Source: Marsupella aquatica
Lineage: Eukaryota; Plantae; Marchantiophyta
Assembly: GCA_973895155.1 (NCBI GenBank)
Contig: OZ316893.1
Span: forward strand, 14,538,645-14,602,644
DNA length: 64,000 nucleotides
Direction of reading: 5' to 3'
The position numbers and the translations under genes were made by a program. Shown here in pieces: positions 54,726-63,600 of this stretch. Each line of letters begins with the position of its first letter. Position 1 is the first letter of the stretch. The notes under the pieces were generated by a model. That model was not told where the DNA came from. It did no database searches and saw only the letters and a list, made by a program, of their open reading frames with translations.

Positions 54726-57700
54726 CTATTTCTGTGGAGCAGGAGCATCCAGCAGTTGCTGTGCAGGTGTAAAATATAGCTGCAGTGATATGCCGCAAAT
54801 CACTATACCCAAAAATAACTGCATCAGCCAGAGAAGTAAGTCATTCACTATGATGCGAACAAAGGCACCGTGTAGAAAGCAGAACTACACAGAATCCTTC
54901 TCTATCATGCCAAATCATGAGTCTTCAGACTTACCGTTAATACGTTATGACCAGAGCGCCCAATTCAATGTTGGCGGGCACAATCCAAACAAGCTGAAAC
55001 GCTAATGATGCTCGAAATATGTCAAGGATCATATCAAAATTGTGTGAACAACTCAGAAGCTCAAAATAGTAGAAACGGTATGTGCAGTACCTGGAGTGTC
55101 GGTACTAGGCTGAATAAATAAACCGAAATCACCATTGTCAGAAGCATTGCCATGGATGTCGAATAAACCTGGACAAGAAGACAAGAAACATGAATTATTC
55201 TCGGTGTCACCGGAAGCTGACGTTTCCCAGAAATCGTGCTCCCACAATTCTGATGTAAACCGTTGCAGTCTTTTAGGATAAATGCACCTGAGATTTACCT
55301 ACTTCTTTTTTACGTGCCAGTCCTAAGATCTCAATCCTAAGACCTTAATCTGGGCAGAGAGACGACTAACCTTCACGATGTTGTCCGCAAATTTCATGAT
55401 CCACGACACCAGCAAGCCAGTGCATCCCAAATTGATGACCACCAGTAGTGTCACTACATTGTAGCCATGGAACAGCCGTACGAACCACAATCCATTGGCA
55501 AACTTATCTTTAAAATCCACCGCAGCCAGCTTCATTCCATTGAAAAGAACACCAAACCTGCACCCATCCAAATCGTCGAGTTCAACCACAGGCAAAGTAA
55601 TTTCACTCACAATTATCTTGCGTGTTTTCCTGGACAGAACACTAGGGTCGCAATATCTAGAGACATCGTACAGTGGCTACAGTGCTGTAAGTGGAAAGTG
55701 CTAATTATACGAAAGAGGTAGGAAGACCTACGCATAAAGCTGAACATTCTGCCAGTGTAGAGAATCGTCATTCTTCTTCATCAGGAATTCTGTGTAGACG
55801 CCTGCCAAGGCAGAGAGACAAGCAGACAGAAGAGCCAGGAGATATCCTTCTAAGGGAGACGCAAGAAGTTTGTCACAATTCGTCTGCCCGCAACCTCTCA
55901 ACTGTGAACAAGACAGTGAGTCAAAGGTAAGAATCCTTGCAAATTCGCTGTTGGATCTACTAAACATTTTTCCTATTCTTGTGGCACACCACAATCTTTA
56001 ACCTGATTCACCAGAAGTGAGCGCATCACTAATTTTACTCAACTTCCTCTTCCCTCAGTATCTAGCTTTCAAATCGTTCTGTTGTTACTTCCCTTCATTT
56101 TGTCCATTCTTGTGAAGCAACAAGCATATTCCCTCACGTTCACATTTCAATTCTCCAAAGAAATGAACATGGAGACAACCCGGTAAGCAGAAGGACAAGG
56201 GACTACCATAAGAACTGATCTATGCCTTGAGTGCTTGCTACAGACGCCCTTCGAACCCAATTGGGCAGCAAGCCCTGTCCAATTGTTAGTCTACGTCTTC
56301 TAACACATCACACAAGCTCTTAAAAAAAACTTACCTGACTGGTCGTAGTCCCAACAGTCAGTAATGCTATCGCCATCCACTGCAATTTTGATAATTTCTT
56401 CTTCAAAAAGAACCTGTACATAGAGTCATATACCAAATTCAAACATCGGAACGAAGCACAAAGATCAACAAAAGAGTAACTGATAGCTTGCCAATTAATA
56501 CAGAAAAGAGCAACGTAATTTAAAGTGGAAAGAGCTATTGGTGTATATCACACAATCACCTTGAAATTGCAGAGAAAAAGTGGAGGCCTCACCGAAATAG
56601 AATGCCCGTGGTTACAATCTTCAAGTTTCCCAGAATTTGGTAAGTGGCTGTGTCAACGTAGGTAAGAGTAGCAAATTGGATATTGTTGTGCAGGACATAA
56701 ATTATCGAAGGGATCGGGTACAAGCACACACTCCTCCAGTCTCTTGTAATTCTTGGAGCTGGACCTTTCTGCATTTCCTTCCAGAGAAACGACGCACTGA
56801 CACAAAGCTGTGACCCCAAACAATTCAAGCTTTGCTCAGAAATTGCAGTGCTATTGCAAGAATAATAATTACAGAAGTCATCCTCCAGCCGACATCTCAC
56901 ACCAGTGCTGTTTTATACACGACTTGCTCTCTTGGCTCAACATCACCTGCCTACGAATGTCAATTGCGACTCCTCAACAACGGAAGGAAAGAATGAGGTT
57001 CAGCCTAACGCTAATTGATTTCCGCCTTCCATCTAGTCACCTAGGGAAAAGAGTTGGCGGGATGAAGAGACCAAACGACCTATCCACCCTGCTGCATGAC
57101 GAAAACGAGATGGATAGCAACGTGCATCAATTTACCTTAACGATCTCCGACAGAAACGGGACTGTTGCGTAATCATATTCATATTTCCCATCCGTTTGAG
57201 ACAGCGTTGTCAAAATACCCTGTGACACGAGAAACAGGAGATGTCAGACTTATCATCCTTGCTTTAAAGAACAGGGAGACTATCCCGTCAGACTATCAAC
57301 GCAGACAGCAACCTGACATTATTATCCAATGACGAAGGAGTCGCCTCCATCCCAAGAAGGAGAAAATTGGAAATCGATTCCATTCGAGATCAGTGGCTTC
57401 CAAATCCTGATTCGTGGCGCCAGTCAAGTAAGGCGGAGTGGGAGAAAACCCCAATTACGCATCATCTCTAGAGCTACAGAATCATCCAGAAGACCTCTCG
57501 CGCAAATCCCCCAGATCTCCCGATGTAATCAATACGAGCTCCAGAGGACACACTCCTACGGGTCAAATGCGTCGCTCCAACTCATCGTTCAGTTACAACA
57601 GGCAGGCACGCTTGCATTGCTTACTCAACAGCTCGCGGTCGAGACAACTCTCACCCCCGAGAAAGAACTTACGTTCCGTCAATGCAGAACTAGATGATGG

Positions 57701-58557
57701 CCAGAGACTGAGCAGAGGCAAACCACAAACGAGAGAGAGAATGATTCGGGAACCCCGCAAACAAACAGCATGCATTTAACGAGCTCGAATTGCTCATAGT
57801 AGAGGACGAGCCAAAGAGTCCTAGAACGCACGCACGCACGCAGGCACAACCGAAGGAGATTTTATGCACCTGTGAGCTGGTGAAGAACATGAACAAGAGT
57901 ACAATACGCGGTCGAACAAGAGACTCCATGGTCGTCTTCACGCAATTCACAAGCTTGCATTTCGTGGTGGAGATTGACACATGACGCACGCATTTGATGG
58001 ATGGCCAGATGGACGAGCGCAGAATTCAAAGATATCGCGCCCTCGTTCCTTCTTTCAGCTCCTCTCTCTCTCCTCTCTCTCTCTTTCTCTCTATCTCTCT
58101 CTCTGAGTCAACACCGCCGGAGTTGACGAAAACAACGCCCTAAAAATGTTTTTCTTCTGTTTCTCTGGTAACTACAAGACGTGATATACAGTAAAATGCC
58201 GCTACGTTAGTTCGCGACGAGGACAGCGATGTGGATGCTGGAGATGGCGTGACTGATGAAGGAGGTGGTGGTGCTAAGAATGCAAAGAGGCAGAGCAGAG
58301 GAGGCAGAAGTAGAAGGAGAAGGGCAAATAGAAGCAGCAGCAGAAGATGTACGATGATGATGATAATGATGTGTATTGTAGGTGTTCACCTGTGAACTGG
58401 TGAACACAGTGAGAAAGGAAGCGACCAACACAGGTGGAATGCGCACGGGCTGCTGCTGCTTCGACTTGACCAACTTCTCGTCCTTCTCTATATCTACATC
58501 CCTTAACAACGCCTGCTGCTCCGAGGTGCTTCCTCCCGCGCCTACGAAACTCCTCAT
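54726..58557 (-). CDS. Nucleotide-sugar transporter, CMP-sialic acid transporter-like (SLC35A family, At5g41760-like), long isoform using first exon 58557-58390
   Basis: FTSSQ|GILTTLSQTDGKYEYDYATVPFLSE, HNNIQFATLTYVDTATYQILGNLKIVTTGILFR, LSALAGVYTEFLMK, GLLVSWIMKFADNIVK|VYSTSMAMLLT and LFLGIVIC...QK*. Stop at 54726-54728. Confidence 0.9.
57870..57929 (-). CDS. Alternative first coding exon of the nucleotide-sugar transporter (MESLVRPRIVLLFMFFTSSQ)
   Basis: ATG at 57929, 20 codons ending FTSSQ, then CAG|GTGCAT. Same phase 0 and same terminal motif as exon 58557-58390. Preceded on the minus strand by a GA-rich tract (~58060-58105). Confidence 0.75.
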
Positions 58558-59972
58558 TGTCTCCTCTTAACTCCTCTTCCTCCTCCTGCTCTAGCACGAA
58601 TTCTTCTCCACGATGACGACGACCACGTCCAGATCCTCCCTCTTGATTCCAACTTTTAACCAATACCTCGCTTGATCCGTTCTCTTCCCGTCCTTCCTTT
58701 CCCTTCCCTTCCCTTGGTCAGCAGCAGGACGCCATTCCGGCCCTCGTCTGCCTCGCCGGCTCCACCACCACTGGTCCTTCGCCGTCAAAGAGTCAGGGCA
58801 GGGCTGCGGTACACGTCCACAATGCGGTGCGAATGTGCGACCGAACAACGATTTGTACAGAAGTACGTTTGCATTCAACAGTACTCCGATGCTCCCGGAC
58901 GCCGAACTTCAATTCACTGCTAGCTTCCGGATGATTAGTGCTGCCTTACGTTAGAATCTCACTCGCTCCGGACAATACAGTTGTTTGTCTGCTGCATCAC
59001 TGCATGATCGGTCTCGGCACCTCATTACTACGAAATCAGCTGACGAAATTCTAAGAGGTGACCGTACACTCTTCCAGGCCAAAGAGCTCCTAATCTGACG
59101 ACGGGGCAGAGATTTACGGGAGAAAGCCGTCGCAGGATTGTCACGTTTTAAGTTAACATTAACAAACGCCATTTCTTCATTCATTCATTCATTCATCTGT
59201 GATAGCCCTTTTCAATCTCCTCCATAATTACCCCTGAAGAGTCGAACATTTTTCTCGATCCAATTGTTCGGTTGATACTCAGAGCAACGGAATCAGGGAT
59301 GAAGAAATCATCGTCTGCTGAGCAGGGAGGGGAGATGAGTACTCTGCAGTTGGCCGGGAAAATCCACAGCAGAGCAGACAACAGACGACTGACAGACAGG
59401 AGGAGAAGGCCGCATGAGGCGCAATGAGTTCCACGTCGGATCGCAGAACAGATTTAAAGCAGCGCATGGCAGCCACTCTTTTTCCGCCTCGAGATGAAGG
59501 TCACTGAACAACAAGAGTCAGACATTTGGGGCCCAGGAAACACCAATTATATGAAGAATGCGAAGCGCTATGAATCATTGCCTTGACAGGCAGAGATGGA
59601 AATCAGAAATCTCGTAGACAGTGTGGCACGGCACTGCGAAGGTGAGATTGGACTCAGCTGGAAAGGAAAGAAAGCTCGATTGCAGTGTAATGAGAACCGT
59701 TCACAACAAGATTGCGCATTGCAGCCGCTCGTTGCTCCATTGTTCAATTCGGAGCCTGTCTAAACCAGACTTCGGATGTTCCAACCAGATTGTCTGCTGA
59801 GCGCGACAGATTGGCGAGGTCATTCGTTCTGTCCATCATTTGGGGCATTATTATTTGTCGCGAGATCGACGACAGACTACAAATTGGATTGATCGAATGA
59901 GGAGCCATTGTGATCCGTCCGTCGTCTGCACTCGGGATTCGTAGTAACCCGATTGCTGAAAGACATTTACTA

Positions 59973-60615: not shown

Positions 60616-63600
60616 CTCCCCCTTGGGTATGACATTTTCCAGGGAAAAAGTTGTACCCATTCTAAACCTGCTTTGTTTCTACTGTATTCTTCTGCTTTCT
60701 CCTATTTTATTTTCTCATCATGATATAGTTAGGGAATAGGATGTGACCTCCCTAAAACCTCCCCATCAATGGGAGGAAAGAGTATCACCATCCATGTTCC
60801 AAAAACAGTTGTAGACTAATCAGAATCCTAAAAAGAATTATGTCCTGAATAAACAGGGGTACTAAGGGTGTGTATGCCGTAACATGTGTGTATAGAGACG
60901 GTATCGTGAGTAAAGTCGTGTCATTTTAGTGGTGAGTAGTCGTATGGAAACCGCATCGTAAGCCCTAAAGTTAGTCATGGTGGGCCGCATTCGCTCGAGG
61001 CTCGTGGAGATGGTGGGCCATACTTCGGATGGTCGTGAGATGGTGGGTCGCACAGCGTTTGGTCGAGCCCGTGAGCGCGGCTTTTTCGGACGTTGCGTGC
61101 ATGTTGCTACGTAGACTCTCCAGGTGATGTGCTCCCCCTGGAACGTGGGGTCGATGAATATCAGGGCTGCAACAAAACTTTTAGGCTGCGCATTCCAATG
61201 GAGAAGGTTAATTTCTGATGCATAGCAGGTGGTAGGGCCTTGGTGAGTAGATCAGCTGAGTTCTCTGCACTCGAAATCCATCGCACATCGATTTGGTGTC
61301 CATTTTGTTCATGTGCAAAGAAAAATTTCGGTGCAATGTGCTTTGTTTTGTCGCCTTTGATGAAACCTGCTGCTATCTGTTCGACACAAGGCCGATTGTC
61401 TTCAAAGATGACAGTAGGCGCAGTTAGTGTATTCGTTCCTGTGCATTCGGCAATATGGTTGATTACATTCCTTAACCAAATGCACTCACGACTCGCTTCA
61501 TACAGTGCTATGATTTCAGAATGGTTGGATGACGTCGTCGTTAATGTCTGCTTTGTGCTCTTCCAAGAGATTGCAGTGTTTCCTGTGAGAAAGATGTATC
61601 CCGTTTGTGATTTTGCGTTTGCAGGGTCTGACAAATATCCTGCATCGGCAAACCCGGTTAGTGTGATGCGAGATTGTCGGGGGTAAAAGAGACCCAGATC
61701 AGATGTACCGTGGAGGTATTTGAAGATCCGTTTGATTCCATTCCAATGCCGAATAGTCGGTTGTGAACTGTGCCTGGCGAGTAGATTGACTGCGAAGGCT
61801 ATGTCTGGGCGGGTTTGGTTGGCAACAAACATGAGCGCCCCTATGGCTGACAGGTAAGGTTTCTCTGAACCAAGAAGTGGTTCTATTTCCTCTCTTTTGC
61901 GAAAGATATCCTTTTCTTTGTCCAACGACCGTAGGTCCATTGGGGATCTTACTGCTTTGCTTGTCGACATGTGGAATTATTGGACCATTTTCTTGACGTA
62001 CGTGGTCTGGTGGAGTAGTATTCCACTCGGGAGATGCTCAAACTGTAGGCCAAGGCAAAAAGTAGTTTGCCCCATGTCTCGCATTTCGAAAACACGTTTG
62101 AGTATGTGTATCGTTTCTAGCATAATCTTAGCGGTTCCGAACAGATTAAGATCGTCAACATATATAGCGACGATTATGAGTTCACTGCCCTCGCGTTTGA
62201 TAAACACGCAGGGAGCTATCTCGCTGTTCTTGAAACCCATAGCTAGCATTTCATCCTTGAATTTGTAGTACCAGGTCCGGCCACTTTGCTTGAGGCCATA
62301 CAGAGAACGTAAAACTTGTACAGCAAATTTTGTCTTAGCAGGAAGTGCGCCCATGGCGGGGTGTGCAGATTGCTGAATGAATGCAATTGCTTTTGAAGTC
62401 TTCTGTAGTATGGCATGATCAGTATGCCTGAATGAGTAGTCGTTGTTCTGGCTGACGTTTTCTGTGTTATTCTCCCCCTGACTATGATAATGTACTCTAG
62501 ATATCAATTCTGGTGGGGCTTCCATGTGTATCATTTTATCTAACGTGCCGTAGAGATAAGCTGTGACTATATCCATTTGATGCATGGATAATTGATGGTG
62601 GAGTGCGAACGCAGTTAAATACCGGTACGTAATGACGTCCATGACTGGAGAATAGGTGAGGTCATAGTCTTTGCCGGGAATTTGTGTAAATCCCCTGGCC
62701 ACTAATCGGGCCTTGTATCTCACGATTATCCCTTTGGAATCTCGTTTCTTTACGAACACCCACTTATATCCCGTAAGGTGTGTCTGTGGAGGGGCCCGAG
62801 TGATTGGTCCGAAGACTTGTCGGGAGATCAGTGAGTCTAGCTCAGATTTGATGGCTCTCTCCCAATGTTCCCAATCTTCTTGTTTCTGGGCTTCTGCAAT
62901 CGTTCTGGGATCGGGTAAGTCCGCTATGATGTCTTTTGAGATTTGGAAAGCGAATCTATCGTCCATCTTTAAAGTAGATCGATCCCAGATGTGTCCAGTT
63001 TTATTATAATGTATGGAGATTTCCTCTCCTTGTTCTAATGATGGTGGCTGGAGTATGGCATTATTGACTGCAGGAATGGTGGGTTTTCTTTGGCGCGGGC
63101 GTTTGTCAGTGGAACCGAGTGGCCTGCCTCGTTTCTGCCTTGGGACTACCTCGGCTGATGGCTGTCCATCGGTCTCAATTCTCGAAGGGGTATTGGCGGC
63201 TGGTACGTGCGATCGGGTGACCTGGGCTACATCCGCGAAGGAATCCGGGAGGTCTCCAAGTACCTTGGTAAGGTGGAGGATCCTTTGTACCTTGCGATCC
63301 GCTAGTGGGGTCCGAGGGTCATTCCAAAATTTGGAGTCAATCTGCCATTTTAATTGTTGGTTGTTCGTATTCTCGAGGTTTTGTGTGGTTCCCAGTTTAG
63401 GGAATACCGACTCATAGAAATGGCAATCTGCCATTCGTGCCTTATAAAGATCTGTCGTGGTCGGGTCGAGATATCGTATGATGGACGGTGAGTCCAAACC
63501 AACATAAACGCCTTTCTGGCGTTGTGGACCAAGTTTGGTTCGTTTGGGACCCATGATCGGAACGAGGACTTCGCAACCAAAGGTGCGAAAGTGTGATAAG

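What the first reader, a model, noticed from the sequence alone, without database searches (positions are those of the whole stretch)
57870..58557. Nucleotide-sugar transporter with two paralogous first exons, one adding an acidic dileucine sorting motif
Seen: two separate ATG-initiated exons each encode the first transmembrane segment and end in FTSSQ|GT in phase 0. Exon 1a is 58557-58390 (56 aa) and exon 1b is 57929-57870 (20 aa). Either can splice to the common GILTTLSQ exon at 57219. Exon 1a carries EQQALL, matching [DE]xxxL[LI]; exon 1b is short like typical homologs. A GA-rich tract between them suggests a second transcription start. Established: acidic dileucine motifs in cytosolic N-termini route plant transporters to the tonoplast, while this family is typically Golgi-resident. 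Inference: promoter choice switches one transporter between Golgi and vacuole/endosome.
Basis: partly seen in the sequence, partly recalled or inferred. Interest (0 to 1): 0.7.

Follow-up and report, generated by a model that had tools for sequence, protein, structure and literature searches.

The report
Duplicated first exons swap transporter helix
A leafy-liverwort gene for a sugar-nucleotide transporter has two duplicated first exons, both joined to the same gene body in a relative's probably-RNA contigs, which would give two versions with different first membrane helices; the proposed vacuole address tag is absent from another relative that likely keeps both exons.

Summary
The gene is a leafy-liverwort SLC35A/CST1-type transporter, likely for CMP-Kdo. 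Exons 1a (56 aa) and 1b (20 aa) are paralogous. Both are joined to exon 2 in a relative's probably-RNA contigs, and 1b-started spliced proteins occur in a further relative.

Exon 1a is the ancestral one: Marchantia, Riccia, a lycophyte and ferns have long first segments, so 1b is the newer copy. Exon 1b is not typical: three helix-1 residues invariant in 109 of 109 homologues (A, L, T) become V, F, M in both 1b copies, and one aligns with mouse CST Met20, a sugar contact.

EQQALL is kept in the window, its close relative and Calypogeia fissa. It is missing from the 1a of a JGI contig that very likely also carries 1b, so the two-exon layout does not depend on it. A start at the GA tract is untested, and contigs run through the 1a donor, so competing donors are as plausible as two promoters.

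Best reading: two isoforms differing in helix 1 and tail. A Golgi/vacuole switch remains possible (about 25%).

The parts
58390..58557 (-). Exon 1a coding part (56 aa): ancestral first exon, about 42-aa cytosolic tail plus canonical first half of helix 1
   Evidence: joint 57218/58389; frame intact in X1; orthologous to C. fissa, Marchantia, Riccia N-termini
58504..58521 (-). EQQALL acidic dileucine-like motif (residues 13-18), a 3-4 residue insertion relative to Marchantiales and the JGI relative
57930..58389 (-). Interval between 1a donor and 1b ATG: intron for the 1a form, exon or leader for at least some 1b RNA; pyrimidine-rich, then GA-rich; three upstream ATGs at 57993, 57982, 57960
   Evidence: (X1 contigs 58113-58416 and 57869-58056)
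58207..58557 (-). 116-codon frame that results if the 1a donor is not used (would be an upstream ORF on a long 1b RNA); the JGI counterpart is 96 aa
58057..58110 (-).
   Evidence: (listed as skipped repeat)
57870..57929 (-). Exon 1b coding part (20 aa): derived partial duplicate, no tail, altered first half of helix 1; ATG context A at -3, G at +4
   Evidence: joint 57218/57869; P0124, P0125
57136..57219 (-). Shared exon 2
56593..56807 (-). Shared exon 3
56335..56413 (-). Shared exon 4
55732..55901 (-). Shared exon 5
55371..55557 (-). Shared exon 6
55091..55168 (-). Shared exon 7
54726..54818 (-). Shared exon 8, coding part to the stop codon

Best explanation
A likely partial duplication of the first coding exon left this leafy-liverwort CST1-type transporter gene with two mutually exclusive first exons, both joined to exon 2 in a relative's probably-RNA contigs, and the newer exon 1b likely makes a second, tailless transporter whose remodelled first helix would change transport or gating rather than chiefly its address. 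Shown: anatomy, paralogy, both joints in a relative, 1b-started proteins in a further relative, and the helix-1 swap. Inferred: that 1b is the newer copy, that both proteins are made, that both work in the Golgi with CMP-Kdo, and that the V/F/M changes alter activity. The choice between exons is made either by a second start downstream of the 1a ATG or by two weak donors competing on one long first exon; the data here do not separate these. The dileucine is read as a lineage-limited extra on 1a.
For: Both joints in X1. P0124 and P0125 start with a 20-aa 1b-type segment, 14 of 20 identical to the window's, while their shared part is 271 of 301 and 170 of 183 identical, so 1b's start, length, frame and C-terminal eight residues have lasted over that distance. 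Long 1a-type starts occur in Marchantia, Riccia, Diphasiastrum and ferns (36-60 aa to the junction). A(-11), L(-8) and T(-7) are invariant in 109 of 109 junction-bearing homologues and kept in 1a, but are V, F, M in both 1b copies. The profile alignment puts L(-8) on mouse Met20 and T(-7) on Thr21. Met20, Ala24 and Tyr27 of helix 1 close on the sugar in the mouse structure (PMC6508934, passages). The predicted 1b protein keeps the ten-helix fold (TM-score 0.82 to maize CST 6I1R). The JGI 1a lacks the dileucine.
Against: No protein, localisation or transport data. The helix-1 register against mouse has only middling posterior (digits 5-7). A mutagenesis study lists no helix-1 residue among the pocket residues it found required (PMC8411240, passages). 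The 109 homologues are mostly related seed-plant sequences, not independent. The model is of moderate confidence (mean pLDDT 63.7) and its alignment is almost all canonical helix 1. Three ATGs lie in the 1b leader, two opening out-of-frame frames that run over the 1b start, which would lower 1b translation. The 1a joint rests on one contig with side 23 at likeness 80, which the tool flags as a weak class. No RNA run of the window's own organism was listed. 1b was not seen among the C. fissa entries.
Confidence: 0.45

Rival explanations
1. One reading: the EQQALL motif sends the 1a form to the tonoplast or endosomes through an adaptor complex, while 1b stays in the Golgi. It could act together with the best explanation in lineages that have the motif.
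For: The motif fits (D/E)X3-5L(L/I), which routes several Arabidopsis transporters to the tonoplast (PMC5383025, passages), and is close to VIT1's EKQTLL (PMC9366067, one passage). It is kept in X1 with two synonymous changes inside it and in both C. fissa copies. A strict motif arises in 3.6% of shuffles of the window tail. The lycophyte tail has a relaxed motif.
Against: Absent from the JGI 1a (P0150), which very likely lies on the same 2307-nt contig as the 1b-started P0125, and absent from Marchantia, Riccia and eight fern or fern-like tails. The rest of the tail is also conserved (42 of 55 to C. fissa), so the motif's survival is not special. Shuffles of the C. fissa tail give a strict motif 11% and a relaxed one 27% of the time. 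No vacuolar use for a CMP-sugar is known to me (recalled); one search for such papers gave 1 general review, listing only.
Confidence: 0.25
2. Regulation of output: one promoter and two competing donors. RNA spliced at the 1b donor carries the 1a frame as a long upstream ORF plus further upstream ATGs, so it gives little protein or is degraded, and the choice mainly sets the level of the 1a transporter.
For: X1 contigs cover the 1a donor and most of the interval to 1b, whereas bins lying in the 1b-exon 2 intron have no cover and other intron bins little or none. A JGI contig has 1a read through its donor. Both donors depart from consensus at +5. The read-through frame stops before 1b.
Against: 1b keeps a strong-context ATG, its frame, its length and a hydrophobic helix (mean hydropathy 1.4-1.6 over 19 residues, like homologues) across species, which a mere decoy donor would not need. 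Contigs cannot show a single molecule, and the JGI contig appears to retain other introns too.
Confidence: 0.17
3. 1b is a tolerated, functionally equivalent or weakly active duplicate kept under weak selection.
For: Its N-terminal 12 residues drift (6 of 12 differ from the JGI copy), and it has lost three otherwise invariant residues.
Against: The same three replacements and the last eight residues are identical in two lineages about 10% apart in the shared part, and the 1b joint is in 2 X1 contigs.
Confidence: 0.1
4. Artefact: 1b is a chance look-alike, or the joints are misassigned.
For: The exon 2 acceptor ends in the same six letters as both first exons, so each joint can slide by 7 letters. 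X1 being RNA is a guess.
Against: The 1b joint has 67 letters on the short side. The last 23 letters of 1a and 1b differ at 5 places. All six shared introns are joined in the same run. Independent JGI proteins begin with 1b.
Confidence: 0.03

Closest known systems
Plant CST1 / maize CMP-sialic acid transporter homologue (PDB 6I1R; SLC35A, Pfam PF04142)
   Same: Same family and fold: E 3e-134 to 6I1R, TM-score 0.82. Counterparts of seven residues reported as critical in SLC35A1 are in the shared exons (read by eye). The maize paper names CMP-Kdo as the likely substrate (10.1101/580449, passages and section 5).
   Different: The seed-plant proteins seen here mostly have one short N-terminus (91 of 104 junction-bearing proteins have 22 or fewer residues before the junction). 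Here two exons offer two versions of helix 1.
Arabidopsis DMP1.1/DMP1.2 (PMC5383025, passages)
   Same: Two N-terminal isoforms of one membrane protein, the longer with a dileucine motif.
   Different: DMP1 uses alternative translation starts on one frame, the membrane part is identical, and localisation was shown (tonoplast versus plasma membrane). Here a duplicated exon also swaps half a helix, and localisation is untested.
Human SLC35A2 UGT1/UGT2 splice variants (PMC9368800, passages)
   Same: Isoform choice in an SLC35A transporter changes compartment (Golgi versus ER and Golgi) through a short dilysine motif.
   Different: ER retention rather than post-Golgi sorting; the motif is C-terminal (position recalled for SLC35A2); no duplicated first exon, no change in helix 1.
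Type I alternative first exons in plants (PMC2174465, abstract and passages)
   Same: Mutually exclusive first exons on shared downstream exons, with weak donors.
   Different: That survey found only 5 rice and 1 Arabidopsis type I cases overlapping a functional domain; the word 'duplication' does not occur in its main text.

Membership tests
SLC35A / CST1-type nucleotide-sugar transporter | Pfam PF04142 above its cut-off over the whole length | tested here: met
   relatives P0124 176 bits and P0004 183 bits, cut-off 27; window exon 3 alone 36 bits
SLC35A / CST1-type nucleotide-sugar transporter | Ten-helix DMT fold like CST | tested here: met
   model of the 1b-type relative P0124, TM-score 0.82 to 6I1R; pLDDT 63.7
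SLC35A / CST1-type nucleotide-sugar transporter | CMP-pocket and sugar-pocket residues (mouse E52, K55, K124, T128, S188, Y214, K272) | tested here: met
   7 of 7 counterparts read by eye from the profile alignment and the window translation; list
SLC35A / CST1-type nucleotide-sugar transporter | Canonical helix 1 (A-11, L-8, T-7, T-4, Q-1): isoform 1a | tested here: met
   5 of 5
SLC35A / CST1-type nucleotide-sugar transporter | Canonical helix 1: isoform 1b | tested here: not met
   2 of 5 kept; V, F, M at the other three in both 1b copies
SLC35A / CST1-type nucleotide-sugar transporter | CMP-sugar transport and Golgi residence | not testable with these tools
   CMP-Kdo is a hypothesis in the papers seen; Golgi residence of the plant orthologue is recalled, not read
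Type I alternative first exons | Each exon spliced directly to the same downstream exon | tested here: met
   in a relative's contigs (RNA by guess); not in the window's own organism
Type I alternative first exons | Separate transcription starts | tested here: inconclusive
   contigs cannot show starts; cover runs through the 1a donor
Dileucine-sorted tonoplast transporters (VIT1, TPC1, DMP1.1 type) | (D/E)X3-5L(L/I) in a cytosolic tail | tested here: met
   EQQALL, residues 13-18; cytosolic side follows from the family's topology (recalled)
Dileucine-sorted tonoplast transporters (VIT1, TPC1, DMP1.1 type) | Motif kept wherever the two-isoform system is kept | tested here: not met
   P0150 lacks it; its link to the 1b-bearing contig is inferred from equal contig length
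Dileucine-sorted tonoplast transporters (VIT1, TPC1, DMP1.1 type) | Tonoplast or endosome location lost on LL-to-AA | not testable with these tools
   needs imaging

The most novel reading that the evidence does not exclude
One gene encodes two CMP-sugar transporters by swapping a duplicated exon that carries both the sugar-clamping half of helix 1 and the sorting tail: the isoforms differ in sugar preference or gating, and in lineages with EQQALL the long form works beyond the Golgi (endosome, tonoplast or oil body), a plant nucleotide-sugar transporter retargeted and retuned by first-exon choice.
Probability: 0.15. Interest if true: 0.78.

Novelty: new variant of a known kind. Interest (0 to 1): 0.5.

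Why it matters
Mutually exclusive first exons that cut into a functional domain are rare in plants (6 cases in the rice and Arabidopsis survey), and here they exchange part of a helix that clamps the sugar in the mouse structure. The pair is a natural experiment on the unsettled substrate of plant CST1 (CMP-Kdo is only hypothesised) in bryophytes, which have only trace RG-II (PMC12168206, passages). Lineages with and without the dileucine give a built-in test of whether such a motif can pull a Golgi transporter onward. Three searches for such a case listed none on this gene; subscription journals are largely outside the library.

Tried and rejected
No whole genome is held, so paralogues elsewhere in this organism were not searched. 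The run search listed no holder on record as RNA, which is no evidence either way.

Contig depths are not used to rank isoforms. Two odd X1 joints (57935/58383 and 58445/58741) were not reproduced when the 1a region was laid alone and are set aside. An in-frame 1a-1b-exon 2 cassette through the AG at 57937-57936 was considered and rejected: no pyrimidine tract, and the G is changed in one X1 contig.

Fisher tests of 1b conservation against its flanks are discarded, because one search showed only 40 of 333 difference rows and the 1-in-60 count is a lower bound.

The first structure model (7 sequences, pLDDT 36) was useless. The sigma-70 promoter scan does not apply to a plant. The metagenome scan gave 2 distant loci of 418 candidate stretches, no liverwort DNA. 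The search with the 1b N-terminus found 4 proteins of 14 candidates, none with 1b. The atlas search only repeated the family.

The tree (the window row ran two positions past the stop) leaves the order of C. fissa, the window and the JGI copies unsettled (91/90), and the 1a tails point the other way, so gain versus loss of the dileucine is open. Mitochondrial targeting of 1a was considered, because CMP-Kdo is made there, and rejected because the tail is acidic (by eye).

Paper searches for At5g41760 with Golgi gave 0 and alone 3. The AP-1/VIT1 primary paper is not held, so EKQTLL rests on a citing passage. Three look-ups in earlier findings were empty. No supplements were read.

Full report
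WHAT IS THERE. The gene lies on the minus strand. Exon 1a (58557-58390, 56 aa) and exon 1b (57929-57870, 20 aa) both begin with ATG, have in-frame stops upstream and end in phase 0 at CAG|GT. Joined to seven shared GT-AG exons (57219-57136, 56807-56593, 56413-56335, 55901-55732, 55557-55371, 55168-55091, 54818-54726) they give open frames of 357 and 321 aa. The exon ends share 17 of 18 and 24 of 31 letters. Among 450 other AGGT sites in the window, only 1b matches 11 of the 12 letters before 1a's CAG; the next best has 7. A partial duplication of the end of 1a with its donor is the simple reading (inference).

FAMILY AND ORGANISM. Exon 3 is 94% identical to a Calypogeia fissa protein and 76% to Marchantia paleacea (400 hits among 411 candidates, 120 listed). 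The shared part is 278 of 301 identical to C. fissa and 229 of 301 to M. paleacea, so the window is from a leafy liverwort (inference). Relatives score far above the PF04142 cut-off and match maize CST 6I1R at E 3e-134. Counterparts of mouse E52, K55, K124, T128, S188, Y214 and K272 are in the shared exons (by eye; list from PMC8411240, passages). CMP-Kdo is the hypothesised substrate of plant CST1 (10.1101/580449, passages and section 5; PMC13213038, passages).

ARE BOTH EXONS USED? No run on record as RNA was listed. One run, X1, guessed to be RNA and from a relative, shows 6 of 6 shared introns joined, plus 57218/57869 (1b; 2 contigs; 67 letters on the short side) and 57218/58389 (1a; 1 contig; 23 letters). 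The three other runs laid show none of these joints. The 1a joint is of a class the tool flags as weak, but the last 23 letters of 1a and 1b differ at 5 places, and C. fissa, Marchantia and Riccia annotations all join a 1a-type segment to exon 2. In X1 the 1a frame has no indel; 6 substitutions are listed in it, 4 in three changed codons and 2 synonymous ones inside EQQALL (6 of that contig's 16 differences were not listed). Two JGI/IMG proteins, P0124 (321 aa) and P0125, begin with a 20-aa 1b segment, 14 of 20 identical to the window's, and run on across the exon junctions; they are 271 of 301 and 170 of 183 identical in the shared part. So 1b is old and is spliced in more than one lineage.

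WHICH EXON IS NEW? That holds only against seed plants: 91 of 104 junction-bearing proteins have 22 or fewer residues before the junction. Marchantia, Riccia, Diphasiastrum and eight fern or fern-like proteins have 36-60, and the liverwort tails align with 1a from the first residue. In helix 1, A(-11), L(-8), T(-7), T(-4) and Q(-1) are invariant in 109 of 109 homologues. Of 150 proteins held, 5 query or 1b rows and 36 without the exact junction motif were left out; one search shows these are mostly fragments or other predicted starts. 1a keeps all five; both 1b copies have V, F and M at the first three. A profile of 84 sequences aligns L(-8) with mouse Met20, T(-7) with Thr21, T(-4) with Ala24 and Q(-1) with Tyr27, at middling posterior. 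In the mouse structure the first two-thirds of helix 1 moves in and Met20, Ala24 and Tyr27 contact the sugar (PMC6508934, passages). Against this, a mutagenesis study names no helix-1 residue among its pockets. A model of the 1b-type P0124 keeps helix 1 (residues 2-27) and the CST fold (pLDDT 63.7; TM-score 0.82 to 6I1R).

THE DILEUCINE. EQQALL fits the plant tonoplast consensus (PMC5383025, passages) and is close to VIT1's EKQTLL (PMC9366067, one passage). It is kept in X1 and in both C. fissa copies, and shuffles of the window tail give a strict motif 3.6% of the time (11% for the C. fissa tail). But it is a short insertion missing from Marchantia and Riccia. A search of 1.84 billion representatives with 1a gave 1 hit, P0150 (73% identical). 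It is exon 1a read through its donor, and its tail has no LL or LI. Its contig is 2307 letters long, as is that of the 1b-started P0125 and of P0126, and the window's distances fit all three in 1948 letters. A shared contig is inferred, not shown. If it is shared, a lineage keeps both exons without the motif, and the motif cannot be the general reason for the pair. Whether it was gained late or lost there is open: the tree of the shared part puts the JGI copies next to the window at 91/90, while the 1a tails put C. fissa closer (42 of 55 against 33 of 51).

PROMOTERS OR DONORS? Nothing here shows a start at the GA repeat, and purine-rich stretches precede both ATGs. X1 contigs cover 58113-58416, across the 1a donor, and 57869-58056, while the 1b-exon 2 intron has no cover; P0150 shows the same read-through in a second data set. 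So some 1b RNA likely begins upstream of the 1a donor. It may begin downstream of the 1a ATG (a second, broad promoter) or share 1a's start, in which case 1a becomes a 116-codon upstream frame. Both donors are off-consensus at +5. Three more ATGs lie in the 1b leader. Contigs cannot show starts or single molecules, so the two options stand about even.

HOW IT MOST LIKELY WORKS. Shown: two paralogous first exons, both joined to exon 2 in a relative, 1b kept in a further relative, and a conserved helix-1 swap. Inferred: both proteins are made; 1a gives the ancestral transporter with an acidic-basic tail; 1b gives a tailless form whose bulkier helix-1 face changes transport, gating or stability; both most likely act in the Golgi (0.45). 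Rivals: dileucine-driven move of 1a beyond the Golgi (0.25, compatible with the first in lineages that have the motif), output control by unproductive 1b RNA (0.17), near-neutral duplicate (0.10), artefact (0.03).

COMPARISON AND NOVELTY. It works like a type I alternative first exon (PMC2174465, abstract and passages), where overlap with a functional domain was seen in only 5 rice and 1 Arabidopsis cases. DMP1.1/1.2 and SLC35A2 UGT1/UGT2 (PMC9368800, passages) are precedents for isoform-dependent location, but by other mechanisms and without a helix swap. Searches for this case listed nothing on it (0 papers; 105 papers, 15 listings seen, none on liverworts; 0); most subscription journals are outside the library, and no supplements were read. 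Verdict: a real feature, a new variant of a known kind, interest 0.5.

Noticed in passing
window 57220-57225 (minus strand): The exon 2 acceptor ends in the same six letters as both first exons, so each joint can slide by 7 letters in alignments.
   Followed up: yes
window 55156-55398 and 56795-57054: Run X4 holds two versions of the same stretch at similar depth, one with 0 and one with 15-20 differences (records 15/16 and 19/20), as expected of a hybrid or allopolyploid; C. fissa also has two copies of the protein.
   Followed up: no
window 57935/58383 and 58445/58741: One X1 contig aligns in islands over the 1a leader, the 1a helix and 1b; it may be a second, more diverged copy read through the 1a donor. 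Not reproduced.
   Followed up: partly
window 55558-55572 (minus strand): P0126 begins with residues that match the end of the window's intron before exon 6 and ends in the intron after exon 7, so that JGI contig appears to retain introns and the intron end is conserved.
   Followed up: partly
P0033 (Diphasiastrum), residues 17-23: The lycophyte orthologue has its own long tail with a relaxed dileucine motif, DGRESLL.
   Followed up: no
window 61161-61976 (minus strand): A 271-codon frame that reads like the end of a Ty1/copia retrotransposon pol (motifs recalled); the Pfam scan gave no family.
   Followed up: partly
window 58841-59242: X1 contigs reach about 700 letters upstream of the 1a ATG; a long leader or a neighbouring transcript, unexplained.
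   Followed up: no
L001 2027-3400; L002 3-895: Two distant metagenome relatives of the transporter (34% and 59% identity); not liverwort-like, not studied.
   Followed up: no
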